Of a stretch of 32,893 nucleotides of DNA, positions 4,108 to 32,674 are shown piece by piece; position 1 is the stretch's first letter, and the number at the start of each line of letters is the position of its first letter. The position numbers were made by a program, and so were the translations under genes. This DNA is from Chiloscyllium plagiosum. Its lineage: Eukaryota. Where the stretch lies: contig NW_025213411.1 in NCBI RefSeq assembly GCF_004010195.1, positions 1-32,893 of the forward strand. Direction: 5' to 3'. The notes beneath the pieces are model-generated. The model worked only from the letters and a program-made list of their open reading frames with translations, was not told the DNA's origin and did no database searches.

Positions 4108-4369
4108 AATCCCACTGCTGGGAGGTTGAGGCTGCCGGATTTCTTGAGGTTGGGATTTCTGGGCTGTTGTGGTCGGTGCCGATCGGGTGTTCGCACTAAG
4201 ATCAGTGTCCACATGGGAACCTGGGTGTACCAGTTGTGCTGCAGAGGGGTGAACCGGCCCAAGTCGGAAACGGAGCAGGTCAAAGGCCCTGCACTGGTCA
4301 GTAGTGGGATGGCACCTGTGAATAGATGCAGCAGTGCAGCCTGACCAATACAGTGAGACGCAGCCTTCT
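4108..4369 (+). pseudogene. RN7SL: 7SL/SRP RNA pseudogene, copy 2
   Basis: Matches the other copies from AATCCCACTGCTGGGAGG but lacks the first ~25 nt and ~11 nt of helix 6. Helix 8 CCCAGG is changed to CCCAAG, and the terminator CAGTCTTTT to CAGCCTTCT. Confidence 0.88.
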
Positions 4370-5621: not shown

Positions 5622-6200
5622 CACAAAATGAATGCTGACATTACAATTGTCTTCCTAACTCTCAACCGAAACTTTGTGTTAGCCTTCGGAGAATCCTGAC
5701 CTCAGTTTTCAAATTTAATTTGTGCTTCAGATTTCCAAAGCCTTTCGTAATTTAGAAAATTGTCAATGCCTCCAATCTCCCTAATAAAGTGCAAATTTGT
5801 AGCAATGATGTCAGTGAGAGCTATTCCTGCCATTTGAACTGAATGTTGCTCAGTTAAGACTCCGAGTTGCTGTATATATGAAAATGTCCAGTTTTCACAA
5901 TCATTATAGTCACAGCCACAAGAGTGTGTAAAATTCTTCACACATTCCACCTCATCTGCTCCATTGACCAATTAATCCGAGCCCACCATTCAATCAGATT
6001 ATGGTTGATAGGATAACTAGACAAAGTCCTTTCCCTGGGGTGGGGGAGTCCAGAACTAGAGGCCATAGGTTTAAGGATCGAGGGGAAAGATATAAAAGAG
6101 ACCTAGCGGGCAACTTTTTCACGCAGAGCGTGTTACATGCATGGAGCGAGCTGCCAGAGGAAGTGGTGGAGGCTGGTACAAATGCAACATTTAAAAGAGA
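5622..6200 (+). repeat. Older direct duplication of 32249-32893
   Basis: cacaaaatg..ctgacatt..tgtcttcctaa..ctcaaccgaaacttt..gagaatcctgacctcag is shared and colinear, including the same CR1 3' fragment. Confidence 0.88.
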
Positions 6201-13680: not shown

Positions 13681-14994
13681 AGTTTAATTTTGACACTGTT
13701 GAAGATTCGTTTGTTACAATATGTGTAGATGTATTGGGGATGAGGTTATAATGATTAATTGTCAGGATACGAATGGATGTGAGAATGAATAAAAGGATGA
13801 GGGAATGTGGGGCGAATGAATGCAGAGTGAACCTGGTGACTGAGACGCTGAATTCAGACACCTTCAGGTCACACGGCAGCCAGAACTCCTCTTCATTGCT
13901 GTAAAGAAAACAGGCTGCTGCAGTTCCTCATCTGGGGCAATTGTTGAAAAGGCTGTGTGTTCTTATGACTAAAAGTGAGGGCAGGGGCTGATTTTGTGCG
14001 ATCGAACAATTGGATAAATGACACCGGTTCTATTATATCGCTCCATTGCTGGCAAGAAAAACGCAGTGCTGTAGTAAATCAGGATTTGTGTTCAATCATG
14101 GAGTGGGAAGCAGCAGGTTGACTGAATGTCAGCGATATTCCAGTTGACTGTGAGAATCGCAGCAGCGAGACACAGACAGCTTTCATCTGACTGATCTCCC
14201 ACGTGGATCAACAGTTGCTGCAAAGTGAGGGTGGCATCGCCCACCTTTGGAAATAATGCATATCAAGGGCGCGATTTTATTTGCGGCCTTCTCTAAGAAC
14301 ATATACCCGGTAGTAAGGATACCGAGAACCGGCTTGTCTTGCGACTTCGACTTAAACCCGGGAATAGCGAATGTTACTGCTCTCCCTCTCTCTCTTTCTC
14401 TCCCGTTCTCGCTGATATTGCAACATGAGGGAACATAAGGTGACAATTGCAGGGTTGCACGATTTTGCGGGAGAGATATTGGCAGAAGTGAATGAATGAA
14501 TGGATGACGCATAGGGGAAGGAGCCGGGAGGCAGCTTGAACGCTTGGTGGTTGCAATGGAAGTTTCGGCAATGTGAGCAATGGAGAATTCGGGCAGGAAA
14601 ATGAAGAGAGTTTTGCGCTCTCTGCTGGCCGTGGCTGGTAGGATTGTGTAAAGTGGAGATTTTCTCAGAACAGTAGGTGCTGTGAACAGCAGGGAGCAGT
14701 AAAAGAGAAGTGAATATTGAGGAGAGGTAGAAAAGGGCAGTGTGGGAAGTGTGAGGTAATGACTGAGAGAGTGTGTTTGGGTGAGTGTGGAGGACTTGTA
14801 GAGAGATTCGATTGTTGTAAAATGTGTGGATTCGTTGTTGACTTTGTAAAGATTGGTTATCGTGAGAGTGAATAAACGCGGCGGGCGTAGGGGGTGGAGG
14901 GAGTGAGTGGGGAAGGAAGGAAGCAGGATTGAGACATCGAGATTGTTTGCACTGATGCCAAAAGATGGGAATGCCGCAAGGTAAAGAATGGTGT

Positions 14995-15292
14995 AAAAGA
15001 CTGCGTCTCACTGTATTGGTCAGGCTGCACTGCTGCATCCATTCACGGGTGCTATCCCACTACTGAGCAGTGCGGGGGCTTTGACCTGCTCCGTTTCCGA
15101 CCTGGGCCGGTTCACCCCTCTGCAGCACACCTGGTACACCCGAGTTCCCCGAGGAGCACCATGTGGACACTGCCCTGAGTGTGGGCACCCAATCGACACA
15201 GACCACAACAGCCCAGAACTCGCAACCTCAAGTCATCCGGCAGCCTCAGCCTCCCAGCAGCGGGATTACAGGCGCGCGCCACAGCCCCCGGC
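14995..15292 (-). ncRNA. RN7SL: 7SL/SRP RNA gene copy 3, full length (298 nt including TTTT)
   Basis: 5' GCCGGG, TGTAA Alu-domain motif, GGAA helix-6 loop, helix 8 CCCAGGTCGGAAACGGAGCAGG, AGTAGTGGGAT, Pol III TTTT terminator. Confidence 0.95.
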
Positions 15293-15386
15293 GATCGCGT
15301 GACGCTTCCCTCAGTTGCCTTCAGTTCAAACGGCAGCAACAGCTCCACTGCAGACATTGCTGCAAAGACAACAGGCGGACGCAGTT
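15293..15386 (-). promoter_or_regulatory. Conserved upstream block of 7SL copy 3
   Basis: Same ~94-bp block as copies 1, 4 and 5; a CR1 3' end begins just beyond it. Confidence 0.5.
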
Positions 15387-18075: not shown

Positions 18076-18156
18076 ATGCAGCTGGACTTTGTCAGTTGCA
18101 AGTGGTGACAACAGCTCCACTGCAGTCACTGTGTAAGTCGAGCAGGCTGTTGCACT

Positions 18157-20210
18157 TGATTTGATGTGATTTATCGTTGTCACACATACCTAAGTGCAGT
18201 TGAAAGTTGTGTTTTGTGTACAGAATAAGCAGATCATAGGGTGATTGAACAGAGCAAGGCAGAGAAAGTTCTGGCAGCAAGGAGAGTACAAAAAGAGATC
18301 GCCATTAGATTTGAAATTTGAGAGACCCATTCGAGAGACGAATAACAGCGAGTAAAAATTTGTTCTTGAACCCACTGGTATGTGCGTTTAAGCTTTTGTA
18401 TCTTCTGCGTGATGGAAGAGGTTGGGAGAGATTATTACCAGGATTGGAGGTGTCGCTGTTGACGTTCGCTGCCATTCCGGAACTACAGTATACGTAGAGG
18501 GAGTCCATGGCTTGTGTGATTGTCTGGGCTGCTCACATAACTTTCTGTAGGTTCTTATGGCCATGGGTAGAGCAATTACCGTACCAGGCCATGATTTAGC
18601 TGGGTAGAAAGCTTTCTATGATGCATTTATAAGAGTTAGTGAGGGTCCTTACAGACATGCTGAATTTCATAAGCGTTCAGAGGAAGAAGAGGCATTGTTG
18701 TGCCTTCTTGATTATCACACCTCTGTGGGAGGTTCAGTGCAGGTTGCTGGTTATCATCACTCCAAGGAATTTGACGCTATCGACCCTCTCCACCTCAGCT
18801 CCATTGTTGTAAGTAGGGTCATGTTCTTCTTCTTTCTTCCGGAGGTCGATGATCAAGCTCCTTAGTTTTGCCCACCACTTTGGAGGAGAGCTCGTTACCT
18901 TTGCATCACAAGATCAAGCATCCTATCTTCTTTCTGTATACTTACTCATGGTTGTCTGATATCTGTCATACAATGGTAGTGTTTTCAGTGAACTTGGAAA
19001 TGGCATTCGGATGAAATTGTGCCACATAGTCCCGAGTGTACAGGGAGTGCAGTAGGAGCTTGAGTACATATTCTTGGGAGGCGCCGTTGTTGAGGCGCAT
19101 CGCAGAGGAGGTGATTTTATCTTTCTTTACTGACTGCAGTCTATGGGTCAAGAGGTTGAGGATCCTGTTGCAGATAGCAGACCCAAGACCTAGGTCTCAG
19201 AGTTTGGAGGTTAGTTTGGTTGGTATTATAATGTTGAAGGTGGAGCTGTAATCAATAAGTAGAAGCCTGACACAGGTATCTGTATTATTCAGATGTTCGT
19301 CGAATGAGTGCAGGATGAGAAAAATGGCATCTACCGTGGACCTGTTGCACTGGTAGGCAGATTGCAAGGGATTGAGGCAGGCTGGGGGTCTAGGGTTGAT
19401 GTGATCCATGACTAACCTCTCAAAGGACTTTGTAAATATGGAAGTCAGAGGCATCAAGCGGTAGTCATTGAGACACATTGCATGTGCTTTCTTTGGTACC
19501 AGAATAATGGAAGCAGTTGGGGACTTCAGATTGTAACAACGAGGGGTTAAAGATGTCAGAAAGTTCTCTCGCTAGCTGGTCTGCACAGGATCTAAGTGCA
19601 TGGCTGGGGACTCCATCCGGACAAGTTGCTTTCCTTGGGTTCACTCTCAAGAAGGCGATCTGACATCTGCAGCAGCGACTGGAGGAATAGGAAGATCTGG
19701 GGTTGTTGGGGGCAGGTGGTACCATTCCATTGGCATTCTATTTGAACGGATTGTAAAAAGAAGATCAGGGAAGGCTGTGTTTTTCTCTGCTATTCTGTTC
19801 TGCTTCAATTTGCATCCTGTTATGCTGTGCAGGCCTTGTGACAGGCGATGGGTGTCCATTTGGTTAGTTTGGGTCTCTAACGTAGTCCTGTACTGCCTCT
19901 TGGCATCTGTAATAGCCTTGCAGAGGTTGTATCTAGAATTGTTATGAAAGTCTGAGTCATTCAACTTGAATGCCACATGCCCGGTCTTCAGTAGGCAATG
20001 GATATCCCAGTTCATACAAGGTTTCTGGTTGATGAACGCACTGATTTTCTTCTTTGACACACAGCCGTCGAAACATATGCCAATCACGTCTGTGACGGTG
20101 ACAGCATACTTGGCTAGGATGACTGCTGAACTCTGAAATATGGTTCAGCCCAACGATTCCAAGCAGTGCCACGGAAGCCCTTCTGCAGCTTCAGACCAGC
20201 ACTGTCCTAC
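18157..20210 (-). mobile_element. Rex1/Babar-clade LINE, decayed RT region plus 3' end
   Basis: NQKPCMN..CKAITDAKRQY, RKATCPDGVP..LRSCADQLA..DIFNPSL, CLNDYRLMPLTS..KSFERLV, LNPLQSAY..NRSTVDAI, LLIDYSSTFNII, KFTENTTIV; (atcaa)-like tail. Confidence 0.9.
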
Positions 20211-21376
20211 TTTCTGTGCTTGGTCCTCAAGTTTCAGATTCTGCTTATAAACTGGGAGCAGGAACACAGTGCTGTGATCTGATTTTCAAAAGTGTATTTG
20301 TGGTATGGGGTGGTAGGCATTGTTGGTGGTTCAGTAGCAATGGTTCAACATCTGTTGCGGAAGCTTCTATGTTACATGCTCTTGTGACTGTAAGGGAAGG
20401 CAGTCGCATGATTTTGTGTGATAGAACCCTTGAACAAATTACACCTCTGCTACTATATTGCTCCATTCCAGCAATGGCCAGGATATGTTTTCAATATTAG
20501 AGTGGGAAGCAGAAGACTGAATACCGGTGGCATTCAAGTGGAGTGCGAGAATATCAGCAGAGAGGAACAGAGAACTTTCTTCTAACCGATCTGCCACTTG
20601 GACCACCGCCAGTTGTAAAGTGAGGCCAGTAAGGCCCCCGTTCTTGGAAATAACGTGCATCTCGGCTGCTATTATTTCTCGCTGTCTTGTGTAAGACCTC
20701 ATACTCGGAAGTGAGGAGATGGAAAAATGGGCTGTTGGTCAACTTGATTGTGGCATCATGGAAATGCCAGTCTTGCTGCCTCTTTCTTTCTCTCTCGTAA
20801 CTACAGCATGAGAGAAGTTAGAATGAGAGTTCAAGTGTTGCACAGTTTTGCAGGAGAATCATTTGCCGAAGTGAATGAATGAATGGATGACGGAGAGGGG
20901 AAAGAGCCGGGAGGCAGCTTGAACTCTTGGTGGTTGCAATGGAAGTTTCGGCAATGTGAGCAATGGAGAATTCGGGCAGGAAAATGCAGAGAGTTTTGCG
21001 CTCTCTGCTGGCCGTGGCTGGTAGGATTGTGTAAAGTGGAGATTTTCTCAGAACAGTAGGTGCTGTGAACAGCAGGGAGCAGTAAAAGAGAAGTGAATAT
21101 TGAGGAGAGGGAGAAAAGGGCAGTGTGGGAAGTGTGAGGTAATGACTGAGAGAGTGTGTTTGGGTGAATGTGGAGGACTTGTAGAGAGATTCGGTTGTTG
21201 TAAAATGTGTGGATTTGTTGTGACTTTGTAAAGATTGGTTATCGTGAGAGTGAATAAACGTGGCGGGCGTAGGGGGTGGAGGGAGTGAGTGGGGAAGGAA
21301 GGAAGCAGGATTGAGACATCGAGATTGTTTGCACTGATGGCAAAAGATGGGAATGCCGCAAGGTAAAGAATGGTGT

Positions 21377-21674
21377 AAAAGACTGCGTCTCACTGTATTG
21401 GTCAGGCTGCACTGCTGCATCCATTCACAGGTGCTATCCCACTACTGAGCAGTGCGGGGGCTTTGACCTGCTCCGTTTCCGACCTGGGCCGGTTCACCTC
21501 TCTGCAGCACACCTGGTACACCTGAGTTCCCCGAGGAGCACCATGTGGACACTGCCTTGAGTGTGGGCACCCGATCGATACAGACCTCAACAGCTCAGAA
21601 CTCCCAACCTCAAGTCATCCGGCAGCCTCAGCCTCTCAGCAGCGGGATTACAGGCGCGCGCCACAGCCCCCGGC
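21377..21674 (-). ncRNA. RN7SL: 7SL/SRP RNA gene copy 4, full length, with clustered G>A changes (possibly impaired)
   Basis: Same landmarks as copy 3, helix 8 and TTTT intact; seven private substitutions in 21499-21636. Confidence 0.92.
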
Positions 21675-21768
21675 GATCGCGTGACGCTTCCCTCAGTTGC
21701 CTTCAGTTCAAACGGCAGCAACAGCTCCACTGCAGACATTGCTGCAAAGACAACAGGCGGACGCAGTT
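21675..21768 (-). promoter_or_regulatory. Conserved upstream block of 7SL copy 4
   Basis: Matches 15293-15386 with no difference seen by eye. Confidence 0.5.
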
Positions 21769-24721: not shown

Positions 24722-24794
24722 TGGAGAATGCGGGTATCAATCCAGCTACCTCTCGCATACAGAGCAAGTGCTCTACCATTTGAGCTAATCCCCC
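24722..24794 (-). tRNA. tRNA-Ala-type gene, probable pseudogene (anticodon position reads TGT)
   Basis: Reverse complement GGGGGATTAGCTCAAATGGTAGAGCACTTGCTCTGTATGCGAGAGGTAGCTGGATTGATACCCGCATTCTCCA (73 nt): vertebrate tRNA-Ala(AGC)-like body with G3:U70 and TTTT 6 nt downstream; U33>C, T-stem mismatch and damaged B box. Confidence 0.88.
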
Positions 24795-26508: not shown

Positions 26509-28500
26509 GCGGATGTGTACTGCCTGCAGGATTTCCCTGCGGCAGGCTATTTCGATGTGACCTTCAGGAGCGTGAAGAATTGCGAGCAGCTCCTGAAGGT
26601 CTTCAAGGAGAAGGAAGGGGAACCTCTATTCTCCATCTTGTCAGCGGTCCCGTTGTGTTTGCTTCCTGCGCAGAGGAGTCGGATTGTAACAATCCAGATG
26701 TACAACCCTCACGTCCCAGCAGCAGATGTTCTGACCTTCCTGAGAAGATATGTCCAGGTCGAAGGAGAGAGTACTGATGTGGTCAATCATTTCAGGATCT
26801 GGACCAGCAAACGACAGGTCAGGGTAACTCTGAGGGTTGATGCCAGTGGGAACATCCTCCTCCCACCCTCCAGCTTTGCCATCGGAGGAAGCAGAGGTTA
26901 CCTGACATACGCAGGGCAGCCGAAAGTGTGCCGAACCTGCGGGAGGTCAGGCCACATGGCGGCGGATTGTAAGGCGACTGTCTGCTGAAACTGCAAGCAG
27001 GAAGGCCACCCGACCAAGGAATGTAAGGAGGCCAAGAACTGTAATCTGTGCGGAGAGGCGGGCCACATTTACAAGGCCTGCCCAAGACAAGGGGCTGCCA
27101 CCTACGCACAGATGGCTGGAGGTGGCAACACAAGCCGTGGACCGCCCAAGACCAGCAAGGTACCACAAAACAGCACGGGAACGGTGTCTGGAGGCACCCA
27201 GAAGGTAGGGCAGGCTGTAGCGGAGCAGATGGCAGACAGAGGGGAGAGGCAGCAGCCGATTCAAGCTCCTTCAAGACAGACGGAGGAAATGGAAGAGGAG
27301 GGACCAAAGGAGGCAGAGGATTGGATTACTGTCAAAAGCAGGAAGAGGAAATCTCCCAAAGCCACCCAGCAAAGGGGGAAGCGACACCTACACGACGAGG
27401 ATACAGGCAGCTCTTCCGACGGTGAGGGCGGGCGCAAGGAGGGTCGTCACCAAAGGAAGAGACAGAGCGACGCGGGGAAATAGGAGGGCAGCACCGCCCA
27501 AACAGGGAAAGACAATCTCTCTGAGGGGATGGGTAAAGGCCTCCCCCGAACCAGTGAGAACCAAGAGGTACCCACCGGCCCACAGCTCCAGGTAACTGGG
27601 AGCAGCGGTCCTGTGACAGCCCCACTGTCAGATGGAGAACTGGACTATGCGGACCCTGGGCCTGACCCGAAGACACCAGAGCGGGGAAATGGCTTCAGCG
27701 TGGAGCCGGACAGCTACCTCAGCCCTGGGAGAGTCCAGCAGTTTGCCGTCACCATGGGGATGCACACAGCTACCCCAGAGGGGCAAGACCAGCAGCAAAT
27801 GGACACTGTTAACCTNNNNNNNNNNNNNNNNNNNNNNNNNNNNNNNNNNNNNNNNNNNNNNNNNNNNNNNNNNNNNNNNNNNNNNNNNNNNNNNNNNNNN
27901 NNNNNNNNNNNNNNNNNNNNNNNNNNNNNNNNNNNNNNNNNNNNNNNNNNNNNNNNNNNNNNNNNNNNNNNNNNNNNNNNNNNNNNNNNNNNNNNNNNNN
28001 NNNNNNNNNNNNNNNNNNNNNNNNNNNNNNNNNNNNNNNNNNNNNNNNNNNNNNNNNNNNNNNNNNNNNNNNNNNNNNNNNNNNNNNNNNNNNNNNNNNN
28101 NNNNNNNNNNNNNNNNNNNNNNNNNNNNNNNNNNNNNNNNNNNNNNNNNNNNNNNNNNNNNNNNNNNNNNNNNNNNNNNNNGTAGATACACCTGGTCATG
28201 GGCAGACGGGTCTATCCGCTCCAGGATAGATTACCTGTTTGTGTTCCGTACGCTCTCGGTCAGATCCACCGACGTCAAGCCGGTGTTCTTCTCTGACCAC
28301 TGCCTCCTGCTGGCCGACTGTCACCTACAGGACGAGCAGTGGGCTGGTAAGGGAACGTGGAAGCTGAACACAAAGCTGTTGACCCCAGGAAACATTGAGG
28401 AGCTCAAGAGGGACTACGCAGGTTGGAGAACTGTGAAGCCCCTCTTTGAGTCCCTAACGGACTGGTGGGAAACAGAAAAAGGGAACATCAAGAGGTTCTT
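26509..28500 (+). mobile_element. Second Tx1-like LINE: ORF1 with three CCHC zinc knuckles plus ORF2 endonuclease; truncated at both ends
   Basis: DVYCLQDFP..FDVTF; CRTCGRSGHMAADC, C*NCKQEGHPTKEC, CNLCGEAGHIYKAC; after the gap YTWS..SRIDYLF..FFSDHC..GTWKLNTKLL; premature stops at 26986 and 27481. Confidence 0.9.
27816..28181. other. N run (assembly gap or masked sequence)
   Basis: 366 Ns. Confidence 1.
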
Positions 28501-29758: not shown

Positions 29759-29852
29759 AACTGCAGCCGCCTGTTGTCTTTGCAGCAATGTCTGCAGTGG
29801 AGCTGTTGCTGCCGTTTGAACTGAAGGCAACTGAGGGAAGCGCCACGCGATC
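29759..29852 (+). promoter_or_regulatory. Conserved upstream block of 7SL copy 5
   Basis: ...CTGCAGTGGAGCTGTTGCTGCCGTTTGAACTGAAGGCAACTGAGGGAAGCGCCACGCGATC|GCCGGG. Confidence 0.5.
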
Positions 29853-30150
29853 GCCGGGGCCTGCGGCGCGCGCCTGTACTCCCGCTGCTGGGAGGCTGAG
29901 GCTGCCGGATGACTTTAGGTTGGGAGTTCTGGGCTGTTGTGGTCTGTGTCGATCGGGTGCCCACACTCAGGGCAGTGTCCACATGGTGCTCCTCGGGGAA
30001 CTCGGGTGTACCAGGTGTGCTGCAGAGGGGTGAACCGGCCCAGGTCGGAAACGGAGCAGGTCAAAGCCCCCGCACTGCTCAGTAGTGGGATAGCACCTGT
30101 GAATGGATGCAGCAGTGCAGCCTGACCAATACAGTGAGACGCAGTCTTTT
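29853..30150 (+). ncRNA. RN7SL: 7SL/SRP RNA gene copy 5, full length (298 nt)
   Basis: GCCGGGGCCTGCGGCGCGCGCCTGTAC... helix 8 GGCCCAGGTCGGAAACGGAGCAGGTC ... GAGACGCAGTCTTTT. Confidence 0.95.
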
Positions 30151-32674
30151 ACACCATTCTTTACCTTGCGGCATTCCCATCTTTTGCCATCAGTGCAAAC
30201 AATCTCGATGTCTCAATCCTGCTTCCTTCCTTCCCCACTCACTCCCTCCACCCCCTACGCCCGCCACGTTTATTCACTCTCACGATAACCAATCTTTACA
30301 AAGTCAACAACAAATCCACACATTTTACAACAACCGAATCTCTCTACAAGTCCTCCACACTCACCCAAACACACTCTCTCAGTCATTACCTCACACTTCC
30401 CACACTGCCCTTTTCTACCTCTCCTCAATATTCACTTCTCTTTTACTGCTCCCTGCTGTTCACAGCACCTACTGTTCTGAGAAAATCTCCACTTTACACA
30501 ATCCTACCAGCCACGGCCAGCAGAGAGCGCAAAACTCTCTTCATTTTCCTGCCCGAATGCTCCATTGCTCACATTGCCGAAACTTCCATTGCAACCACCA
30601 AGCGTTCAAGCTGCCTCCCGGCTCTTTCCCCTCTCCGTCATCCATTCATTCATTCACTTCGGCAAATGATTCTCCTGCAAAGCCGTGCAACCCTGCAACT
30701 CTCACCCTAATGTTGCATGTACTGCAGAAAGAGGGAGAGAGGCAGCAAGATTGTAATTCCATGATTTGTCTTTGAGCCACAATCAAGTTTGCCGCCACCC
30801 CATTTTTCCGTGTCCTGTCTGCCGAGTATTCGCTCTTGGAGAAGTCGTCGAGAACGTGTATCACCCTAAATGCGCCTTATTTCCGAAGACGGGGCGTTTC
30901 CGACCTCGTTGCAACTGGTGGTGTTTCAAATGTGAGATCAATCCGAAGAAAGCTGTGATTTCTGCTGTGATTCTCGCAGTCCACTGGAATATCACCGGTA
31001 ATCAGTCAACCTGCTGTTTCCCACTCGCATGTCGAAAACAAATCCTGATTTACTTCAGTCCTGCATTTTTTCTGGCAACAATGGAGCGATATAGTAGAAC
31101 AGGCATAATTTATCCAAGGGTTCTATCCCACAAATACAGCCCCTGCCCTCACTTAGAGTCACAAGATCACATAACGTCGCTGCTTTTACTATTGTCCCAG
31201 ATGAGGAATTGCAGCAGCCTGTTATCTTTCTCGCAATCACTGCAGTGAAGCTGTGGCTTCTTTTTGAACTGAAGGCGGCTGCATCAGTCCTCACTCCGCA
31301 CTCATTCACCCCACCTTCACTTATCATTTCACTAATTCTCACATCCTTAGTTTCCCGACAACTAATCATCACAACCAGATCACCAATACATAGACACATT
31401 TTGAAACAAACGAATCTTCAACTGTGTCAAGACTAAGCTATCACAGCCGGGCATATCCCGCAGCATATAAATAACTGCTGTGGTCCTGATGCGCCAGTTT
31501 GAAAGCCATCCTCAATCTCTTCCATTCTCCAGCCCAGGACCTGGGCCTGTTCTTGAAAGTCGCCAAAAAAGATACTCAGATATGCACTTAACCCTGATCA
31601 GTCAAACATTCCTCATCCTTGACGGTGCAGAAAGTAATAATTTTTCGAAGTCCAGTTCAGTAGGTAAGAAGACAAGTTAGAGTGACTGTTTAGAGACGAT
31701 GGCCCTTCCTCAGAAGCGGATCCGAAACGTTGACTCCGATTTCTCTTCACAGATGCTGCCAGACCTGCTGAGATTTATCAGCCATTTCTGTTTTCGTTTC
31801 TTATTTACAGCACCCGCAGTTCTTTTTTTTTAACATTTGTACTATTCCTGGACTATTGTTAAGGCTACATTCGGGGTTTCAGTGGCTCTTTTCTCATTCT
31901 CACAAACGAATGTAGCAGTTGATGCAGTCATCTGGCAACACCACTTCCTGTATATACGATTTGGATTCAAACATAAGCAGAATTAGAGGAATTGATTATA
32001 TCCTGTGTAATTATAAACTCTGTATTCAATGTAAGCTGACAACTCATAAGCAACTTTAGCTTCTTGCACACCACTGCATTTACATTGGCACAAGTCATCA
32101 TCATAGGCTGGAATTGCACGTTTATTTTTCAGAATAATTGGTACATAAACCTCCAAGATTATACATTTCAAACTGCTGAGGTCACAGCTAGAAGATTCAA
32201 CCAGGCAGTAACTGCCCGTTTAATGGCATCTTAGTCACACTCCCAATGCACAAAATGCTGACATTGCATTTGTCTTCCTAATTCTCAACCGAAACTTTAT
32301 GTTAATCTTCAGAGAATCCTGACCTCAGATTTCAAATTTCATTTGTGCTTCAGATTTCCAAAGTCTTTCATCATTTAGAAAATTGTTGATGCCTCCAATC
32401 TCCCGACTAAATTGCATATTTGTAGCAATAATGTCAGTGGAGCTATTCCTGCCATTTGAACTGAAAGTTGCTCAGTTAAGACTCCCAGTTGCTATATATA
32501 TGAAAATGTTGAGTATTCACAATCATGACAGTCACAGCCACAAGAGCGAGTAAAATTATTCAGTTTTTCCACCTCATCTGCTCCATTGACCAATTTTACA
32601 AGCACAGCAATATAGAAAACAGGGAATGGAGTTGGCCATTTGACCCATTAAACCCAGCCACCATTCAGGCAGAT

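What the first reader, a model, noticed from the sequence alone, without database searches (positions are those of the whole stretch)
29853..30150. Compensatory base-pair changes suggest the divergent 7SL evolved under structural selection
Seen: GGGCAGTGT pairs fully with GCACTGCTC (9 bp including G-U), CGGGTGC with GCACCTG, and GGTGC with GTACC. The helix-6 loop is GGAA (GNAR, the SRP19 site), helix 8 is intact, and the Alu loop-loop pairing G(C/T)GGC/GCTGC is still possible. Recalled human 7SL has GTTCGGCAT/GTGCTGATC at the first helix, which implies several double substitutions. Inference: divergence happened while the RNA was functional and is not random decay.
Basis: partly seen in the sequence, partly recalled or inferred. 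Interest (0 to 1): 0.7.

Follow-up and report, generated by a model that had tools for sequence, protein, structure and literature searches.

The report
Amplified second 7SL class, helices conserved
This is a full-length gene for 7SL RNA, the scaffold of the particle that steers new proteins into the secretory pathway, belonging to a second, multi-copy class whose changes keep the RNA's base pairs far more often than chance, so it likely diverged while working, probably as an egg-type stock like that of zebrafish, although some protein-contact bases are altered.

Summary
29853-30150 is a full-length Metazoa_SRP match (219.5 bits), one of five copies in the window, and the three named helices pair as stated. 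Against an outside 7SL (L001), 24 of 33 touched pairs are kept (8 by double change) and 9 broken; random placement breaks 20.5. RNA reads show this is not the species' main 7SL: 51 of 53 reads at 29937-29949 belong to another class. Of 14 changes specific to the variant, 12 keep the pair (null 7.8, P=3e-4). Contig depth suggests roughly 35-100 copies. Against a simple reading: differences between recent copies break 6 of 9 pairs and are as frequent as in flanks. The helix-7 U-turn (A172, A173) and the U110-G243 wobble, both SRP68/72 contacts, are changed, and the -50 CRE is absent. Best reading: an amplified, likely germ-line-type 7SL class under past structural selection, with individual copies decaying. 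Oocyte expression is untested. The zebrafish precedent is published, and the scan noted similar clusters on other DNA before.

The parts
29853..30150 (+). Full-length variant-class 7SL (SRP RNA) gene, the copy named in the finding
   Evidence: RF00017 219.5 bits, model 1-299
29759..30709 (+). Recently homogenised or amplified core unit: about 95 nt upstream, the gene, about 560 nt downstream
   Evidence: 951 nt at 97% to the copy at 15292; 92-100% per 100-nt bin inside, 62-81% over the next 700 nt
29853..29897 (+). Alu 5' domain; G4, U23, G24 triad kept; helix 3 has two family-wide broken pairs and a third private to this copy
   Evidence: triad from PMC12265939 passages
29954..29960 (+). Helix 5 strand pairing with 30093-30099; its last base is the U110C equivalent at the 5e loop
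   Evidence: PMC5224484 passages
29970..29978 (+). Distal helix 5 strand pairing 9 of 9 with 30072-30080; two double changes and three single changes against L001, none broken
   Evidence: model pairs 120-228 to 126-222
29979..30018 (+). Helix 6 with GNAR loop GGAA at 29997-30000; double transversion G-C to C-G at its base; three pairs broken against L001
30019..30025 (+). Helix 7 loop, changed at 4 of 7 positions against L001, including the A172 and A173 equivalents
   Evidence: numbering checked against PMC5224484
30026..30071 (+). Helix 8 (SRP54 site), 45 of 46 positions identical to L001
30147..30150 (+). T4 run, likely Pol III terminator
   Evidence: sequence; function inferred
14995..15292 (-). 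Second full-length copy
   Evidence: 223.9 bits; 97.7% to the named copy
21377..21674 (-). Third full-length copy, 7 private changes, 4 of them pair-breaking
   Evidence: 211.5 bits
1..97 (-). Fourth copy, cut by the window edge; shares the long upstream flank with the named copy
   Evidence: 94.8% over 97 nt
4108..4369 (+). Older copy of the same lineage, 5'-truncated with an 11-nt deletion in helix 6; likely pseudogene
   Evidence: 162.6 bits; shares 43 of 53 family differences from L001
31197..31442 (+). Older unit with upstream-like and downstream-like flank but no 7SL
   Evidence: 80% over 80 nt to the upstream element; alignment

Best explanation
This gene belongs to a second, multi-copy class of 7SL genes, distinct from the class that dominates two RNA runs, and its fixed changes keep base pairs far more often than chance, so it likely diverged as a working SRP RNA and is probably a germ-line (oocyte-type) stock. 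Shown: full-length fold, intact SRP54 and SRP19 sites, DNA-level duplication with flanks, pair-keeping bias, minority share in the RNA examined. Inferred: a duplicate lost or never had the -50 CRE, was amplified as a ~950-bp unit to roughly 35-100 copies, and is transcribed by Pol III mainly in oocytes to load eggs with SRP. Selection would act on the family as a whole, so single copies drift and die (birth and death) and the SRP68/72 contact bases are relaxed or retuned.
For: 24 of 33 touched pairs kept, 8 double; null 20.5 broken. 16:1 transition asymmetry. 12 of 14 variant-derived changes keep the pair, null 7.8 +/- 1.2, P=3e-4. 6 of 56 differences fall on the 68 highly conserved Rfam positions, 12.8 expected, P=0.01, and 3 of the 6 match the consensus. 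After the split from the old copy at 4108, 4 of 5 family-derived paired changes are paired. RNA run X21: 51 of 53 reads at 29937-29949 carry another class; run X20 (RNA by guess) shows the same 7 differences in 9-11 contigs. 3 of 55 X21 reads are 95% or more like the variant, and no depth lies upstream of about 29856. DNA run X5: family contigs at depth 384-502 against 4.9-10.9 for single-locus pieces. Zebrafish has 67 clustered maternal copies and one somatic copy (10.1101/869651, whole main text read).
Against: No ovary or egg RNA was examined; the tissue of X21 is unknown. Private changes break 6 of 9 standard pairs and are as frequent in the gene as in the flank. A172 and A173 of the helix-7 U-turn, both capital positions in Rfam, are changed in all copies; U110, G113 and A118 changed after the split from the old copy. 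The model structure is less stable than in L001 (-106.5 against -121.6 kcal/mol), and two sister copies fold poorly into it (mean pair probability 0.24 and 0.15 against 0.74). Doubles in the polarised set are not significant (P=0.053). The 3 variant-like reads may be genomic DNA. The outgroup is one sequence. The 3' strand of the expressed class was not seen.
Confidence: 0.55

Rival explanations
1. The class was selected in the past but is now relaxed or dead: a once-functional 7SL paralog that was carried to high copy number by segmental duplication and now decays.
For: 6 of 9 private changes break pairs against 9 of 33 fixed ones (Fisher P=0.049); gene no more conserved than flank between copies; no CRE at -50 whereas L001 has it; about 4% of reads despite tens of copies; SRP68/72 contact bases changed.
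Against: Helix 8 is 45 of 46 identical to L001; the homogenised core is centred on the gene and starts 94 nt upstream in two copies; pair-keeping changes continued after the split from the old copy (4 of 5, small n). New mutations in a redundant family are expected to look neutral even when the family works.
Confidence: 0.27
2. The class is functionally specialised: it keeps SRP54 and SRP19 binding but has a rebuilt SRP68/72 platform, giving a particle with different receptor-GTPase activation or a storage form.
For: Changes cluster at helix 7 (4 of 7), U110, G113 and A118 while helix 8, A231, G232, C111, A240 and U241 equivalents are kept; human U110C halves SRP72 RNA-binding-domain affinity and A172 stacks on SRP68 F108 (PMC5224484 passages). 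The four helix-7 changes allow a two-pair hairpin shifted by one base (read from the sequence; weak).
Against: The expressed class also differs at the G113/C114 equivalents in one X20 contig, its helix 7 was not seen, a two-fold affinity change is small, and relaxed selection gives the same pattern. No binding data.
Confidence: 0.12
3. It is simply this species' ordinary 7SL, diverged with the lineage.
For: Full-length, high Rfam score, several copies.
Against: 51 of 53 reads in X21 and 31 of 31 contigs in X20 belong to other classes. By-eye comparison gives about 29 differences in 87 positions between the classes over model 59-146.
Confidence: 0.03
4. It is a 7SL-derived SINE or retrocopy family.
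For: Many copies in mixed orientation; 5'-truncated copies exist (4108 here; one more in X5).
Against: Copies share upstream and downstream flanks at 95-100%, keep the whole S domain and have no A-tail; SINE1 families lack the S domain (PMC7245038 passages).
Confidence: 0.03

Closest known systems
Metazoan SRP RNA (7SL), Rfam RF00017
   Same: Full-length match, 219.5 bits; GNAR loop, helix 8, Alu G4/U23/G24 triad kept; 65 of 68 highly conserved positions kept in the family majority, as many as in L001.
   Different: Helix-7 A172/A173 equivalents changed, U110-G243 wobble replaced by C-G, Alu helix 3 weakened, no CRE at -50; 81% identical to L001.
Zebrafish maternal-type SRP RNA clusters on chromosome 11 (Breit et al., bioRxiv 10.1101/869651; whole main text read, supplements not seen)
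   Same: Tens of clustered near-identical copies (67 there, an estimated 35-100 here) beside a different class that dominates other RNA.
   Different: Zebrafish classes differ by about 7%; here about a third of positions differ over model 59-146. Units here are spaced kilobases apart in mixed orientation. Egg expression is shown there and untested here. The paper has no base-pair test.
7SL-derived SINE1 families and 7SL retrocopies (PMC7245038, passages read)
   Same: Multi-copy 7SL-derived sequence with conserved Alu pairing.
   Different: S domain retained, shared flanks, no tail; duplication is at the DNA level.

Membership tests
Metazoan SRP RNA (RF00017) | Full-length covariance-model match above the gathering score | tested here: met
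   219.5 bits against 70, model 1-299
Metazoan SRP RNA (RF00017) | Helix 8 with its loops (SRP54 site) | tested here: met
   1 difference in 46 positions against L001; 39-nt identical run
Metazoan SRP RNA (RF00017) | GNAR tetraloop on helix 6 with A at the third position (SRP19 site) | tested here: met
   GGAA at 29997-30000; definition from PMC4615810 part 1
Metazoan SRP RNA (RF00017) | Alu U-turn triad G4, U23, G24 | tested here: met
   present in all four recent copies; nt 27 is privately changed in two copies
Metazoan SRP RNA (RF00017) | Helix-7 T-loop/U-turn with conserved UAA (A172 contacts SRP68) | tested here: not met
   model 171 A>G and 172 A>C in all copies that cover it; whether another loop forms is untested
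Metazoan SRP RNA (RF00017) | 5e K+-turn wobble U110-G243 (SRP72 site) | tested here: not met
   C-G in the recent copies, U-G in the old copy, L001 and (5' side) the expressed class; the position is not a capital in Rfam
Metazoan SRP RNA (RF00017) | Assembles with SRP proteins and targets nascent chains | not testable with these tools
   needs biochemistry
Vertebrate housekeeping 7SL gene | CRE/ATF site near -50 | tested here: not met
   no TGACG or CGTCA in the 100 nt upstream of this copy; L001 has it at -50 to -43; definition for mammals from PMC7279448 passages
Vertebrate housekeeping 7SL gene | Dominant 7SL in cellular RNA | tested here: not met
   2 of 53 reads at 29937-29949 in X21; 0 of 31 contigs at 90% or more in X20
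Maternal-type SRP RNA (zebrafish pattern) | Many clustered near-identical copies | tested here: met
   5 copies in 33 kb; depth ratio 35-103, a rough estimate
Maternal-type SRP RNA (zebrafish pattern) | A distinct class dominates other RNA | tested here: met
   two runs; tissues unknown
Maternal-type SRP RNA (zebrafish pattern) | Dominant in eggs and early embryos | not testable with these tools
   no run identified as ovary or egg
7SL-derived SINE1 | Central S-domain deletion and insertion without shared flanks | tested here: not met
   S domain whole; flanks shared at 95-100%

The most novel reading that the evidence does not exclude
A cartilaginous fish keeps a germ-line SRP RNA class that has held its SRP54 and SRP19 sites nearly fixed while rebuilding the SRP68/72 platform (helix-7 U-turn, K+-turn wobble, 5f neighbourhood): a second, mechanistically different signal recognition particle for eggs, and a natural mutant set for asking what SRP68/72 do.
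Probability: 0.12. Interest if true: 0.75.

Novelty: new variant of a known kind. Interest (0 to 1): 0.42.

Why it matters
Compensatory change in an SRP RNA is ordinary. What matters is that it is found in a second, amplified class that is not the main expressed 7SL. If the class proves oocyte-specific, the dual maternal/somatic translation system reported for zebrafish SRP RNA would extend to another vertebrate lineage, with far deeper divergence between classes. The variant also carries, naturally, a substitution studied in human SRP (U110C) and changes in the SRP68-contacted U-turn, so it offers a direct test of how much the SRP68/72 platform can change.

Tried and rejected
No whole genome is held, so copies could not be counted directly and no main-class gene could be fetched. 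A motif search of viral contigs found 0 matches; metagenome contigs gave 1 (L001), so R-scape-type covariation on many homologs was not possible. Run search: no RNA holder listed; this is not evidence on expression. Folding z-score is uninformative (-0.02 for this copy, -1.66 for L001). The A at the human C242 equivalent was first counted as a lost contact and dropped, because the Rfam consensus has A there. ARAGORN found no tRNA gene. Look-ups of earlier scan notes by sequence and by relatives found nothing. Paper searches for a shark or ray 7SL variant (7SL, shark, chondrichthyan, cartilaginous fish, elasmobranch; SRP RNA genes, tandem, oocyte-specific, 7SL, germline) listed none; only 15 of 1,777, 2 of 2 and 15 of 20 listings were seen, and subscription papers are not in the library. 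The SINE reading and the 'ordinary 7SL' reading were rejected as above.

Full report
Observation. Rfam RF00017 (Metazoa_SRP) matches 29853-30150 on the + strand over the whole model, 219.5 bits against a gathering score of 70. Its species is unknown. That the window comes from a shark is taken from earlier scan notes and was not tested.

Surroundings. The window holds four Rfam matches (29853+, 15292-, 21674-, 4096+) and a fifth copy cut by the edge (97-1). The four recent copies are 95-98% alike and share flanks: 951 nt at 97% around the gene, falling to 62-81% over the next 700 nt. This is DNA-level duplication with a recently homogenised core, not retroposition. The copy at 4108-4369 is older, 5'-truncated and lacks 11 nt of helix 6, but shares 43 of the 53 family differences from L001 that it covers. 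In DNA run X5, family contigs have depth 384-502 while pieces of single loci have 4.9-10.9; two of those pieces carry the unique flanks of window loci 4108 and 31197. The ratio, 35-103, is a rough copy estimate; the tool warns that depth is no exact copy number.

I took the Rfam structure (120 pairs), kept the 101 that are standard in L001, and scored the majority of the three full recent copies. The alignment needs no fitted gaps. There are 56 differences in 298 positions. They touch 33 of the 101 pairs: 16 kept by one change, 8 kept by two, 9 broken; 4 further pairs are gained. Re-placing the same substitutions at random among same-letter paired positions breaks 20.5 +/- 2.0 (lowest 11 in 20,000) and gives 1.9 +/- 1.2 doubles (P=5e-5). 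The named copy alone has 10 broken and 8 double. Single transitions beside a Watson-Crick pair go 16 times to or from G-U and once to A-C (P=2.7e-4). Only 6 of the 56 differences fall on the 68 positions printed as highly conserved in the Rfam consensus, 12.8 expected (P=0.01; positions read by eye). This comparison cannot say on which branch the changes arose.

A second class in the same species. Reads were laid on 29760-30020 only (4 of 24 listed runs). In RNA run X21 (about 2% of the run read), 52 of 55 reads are under 90% alike, and 51 of 53 reads over 29937-29949 carry another class with 7 listed differences; run X20, a separate study and RNA by guess, shows the same 7 in 9-11 contigs and has 0 of 31 contigs at 90% or more. 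So the window's genes are not the main expressed 7SL. Three of 55 X21 reads are 95% or more like the variant, and depth begins near 29856 with none upstream; two or three molecules cannot exclude genomic DNA, and the tool drops some reads unseen. The main class did not appear in DNA run X5, which I cannot explain from the output beyond that filter or the likeness threshold. Using the listed differences and loose ends, aligned by eye without gaps over model 59-146, I found 16 positions where the expressed class agrees with L001 and the variant differs; 14 other positions where the expressed class differs from L001 were left out of the null's pool. Fourteen of the 16 lie on L001-standard pairs and 12 stay paired (null 7.8 +/- 1.2, P=3e-4; free-letter null 4.8, P=8e-5); the other two gain a pair. 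Four are double changes against 1.6 expected (P=0.053, not significant). The 3' strand of the expressed class was not seen.

Evidence against. Among the four recent copies there are 18 private differences from the majority; 9 hit standard pairs and 6 break them, against 9 of 33 for fixed differences (Fisher P=0.049). Gene and flank differ alike between copies (7 and 11 of 298; 16 of 548, 10 plus a gap of 550). Some may be assembly errors. The named copy has private changes at nt 8 and 12, inside the A box as placed at 6-15 for human (PMC7245038 passages), at 27 and at 64; X5 shows G at nt 64 in all depth there. The 9 broken pairs sit in Alu helix 3 (2), helix 5 (2), helix 6 (3) and helix 7 (2). 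With human numbering equal to model position plus one (checked against G109, U110, C111, G113, A231, G232, A240-G243 in PMC5224484 passages), the family has A172G and A173C in the helix-7 U-turn, where SRP68 F108 stacks on A172, and U110C, the change that halved SRP72-RBD affinity in that paper; U110, G113 and A118 changed after the split from the old copy. There is no CRE upstream, whereas L001 has one at -50, the position given for mammalian 7SL genes (PMC7279448 passages); the promoter of this species' main class is unknown. The model fold is 15 kcal/mol weaker than in L001, and only the named copy folds mainly into it.

Mechanism. Shown: an amplified second class, pair-keeping fixed divergence, intact SRP54 and SRP19 sites (helix 8, 45 of 46; GNAR loop as defined in PMC4615810, part 1 of 3 read), neutral-looking differences between copies, minority share in the RNA seen. 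Inferred: the class works as a family, supplies SRP RNA where demand is high, most likely oocytes, and turns over by birth and death. I put this at 0.55, past selection with present decay at 0.27, a functionally rebuilt SRP68/72 platform at 0.12, and the ordinary-gene and SINE readings at 0.03 each.

Comparison. It is a member of RF00017 by fold, but fails two local features (helix-7 UAA, K+-turn wobble), so a normal particle is not assured. It works like the zebrafish maternal SRP RNA clusters in layout (10.1101/869651, whole main text read; its supplements, which hold the sequences and counts, were not seen), but egg expression, the defining feature, is untested. Divergence between classes is much deeper here, about 29 of 87 positions by eye over model 59-146 against about 7% overall in zebrafish. 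PMC12265939 and PMC5807370 were seen as passages only. My searches listed no paper on a shark or ray 7SL variant. Earlier scan notes describe similar clusters in three other genomes; these are unchecked and are not counted as support.

Verdict. Observation confirmed; interpretation supported for the lineage, not for each present copy. New variant of a known kind; interest 0.42.

Noticed in passing
window 31197-31442 (also 13861-13943, 32419-32465, 5796-5843, 18109-18158): Older copies of the upstream element, at 31197 followed directly by downstream-like flank with no 7SL between them: an empty unit, either a deletion or the pre-insertion state.
   Followed up: partly
window 29759-30709 against 14436-15386 and 20818-21768: Sharp drop from 95-100% to 62-81% identity at about 30710, suggesting gene conversion or recent re-amplification of a core inside older duplicated units.
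   Followed up: partly
run X20 laid on window 29936-29967: Minor loose ends and partial depths hint at more than one expressed 7SL class besides the variant.
   Followed up: no
run X5 laid on window 29866-30020: A further single-locus, 5'-truncated copy with 17 differences and an unrelated flank, and a loose end keeping A118 beside variant-type helix letters: intermediate family members elsewhere in the genome.
   Followed up: no
window 24722-24794 (-): Degenerate tRNA-like sequence, 41.7 bits in Rfam, not called by ARAGORN; resembles tRNA-Ala by recall.
   Followed up: no
window 27000-28500: Purine-rich stretch split by a run of N; by eye it looks like a coding remnant of a retrotransposon; not searched.
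   Followed up: no
L001:162-170: Perfect CRE at -50 to -43 upstream of the outside 7SL, the same position as in mammalian 7SL genes.
   Followed up: yes
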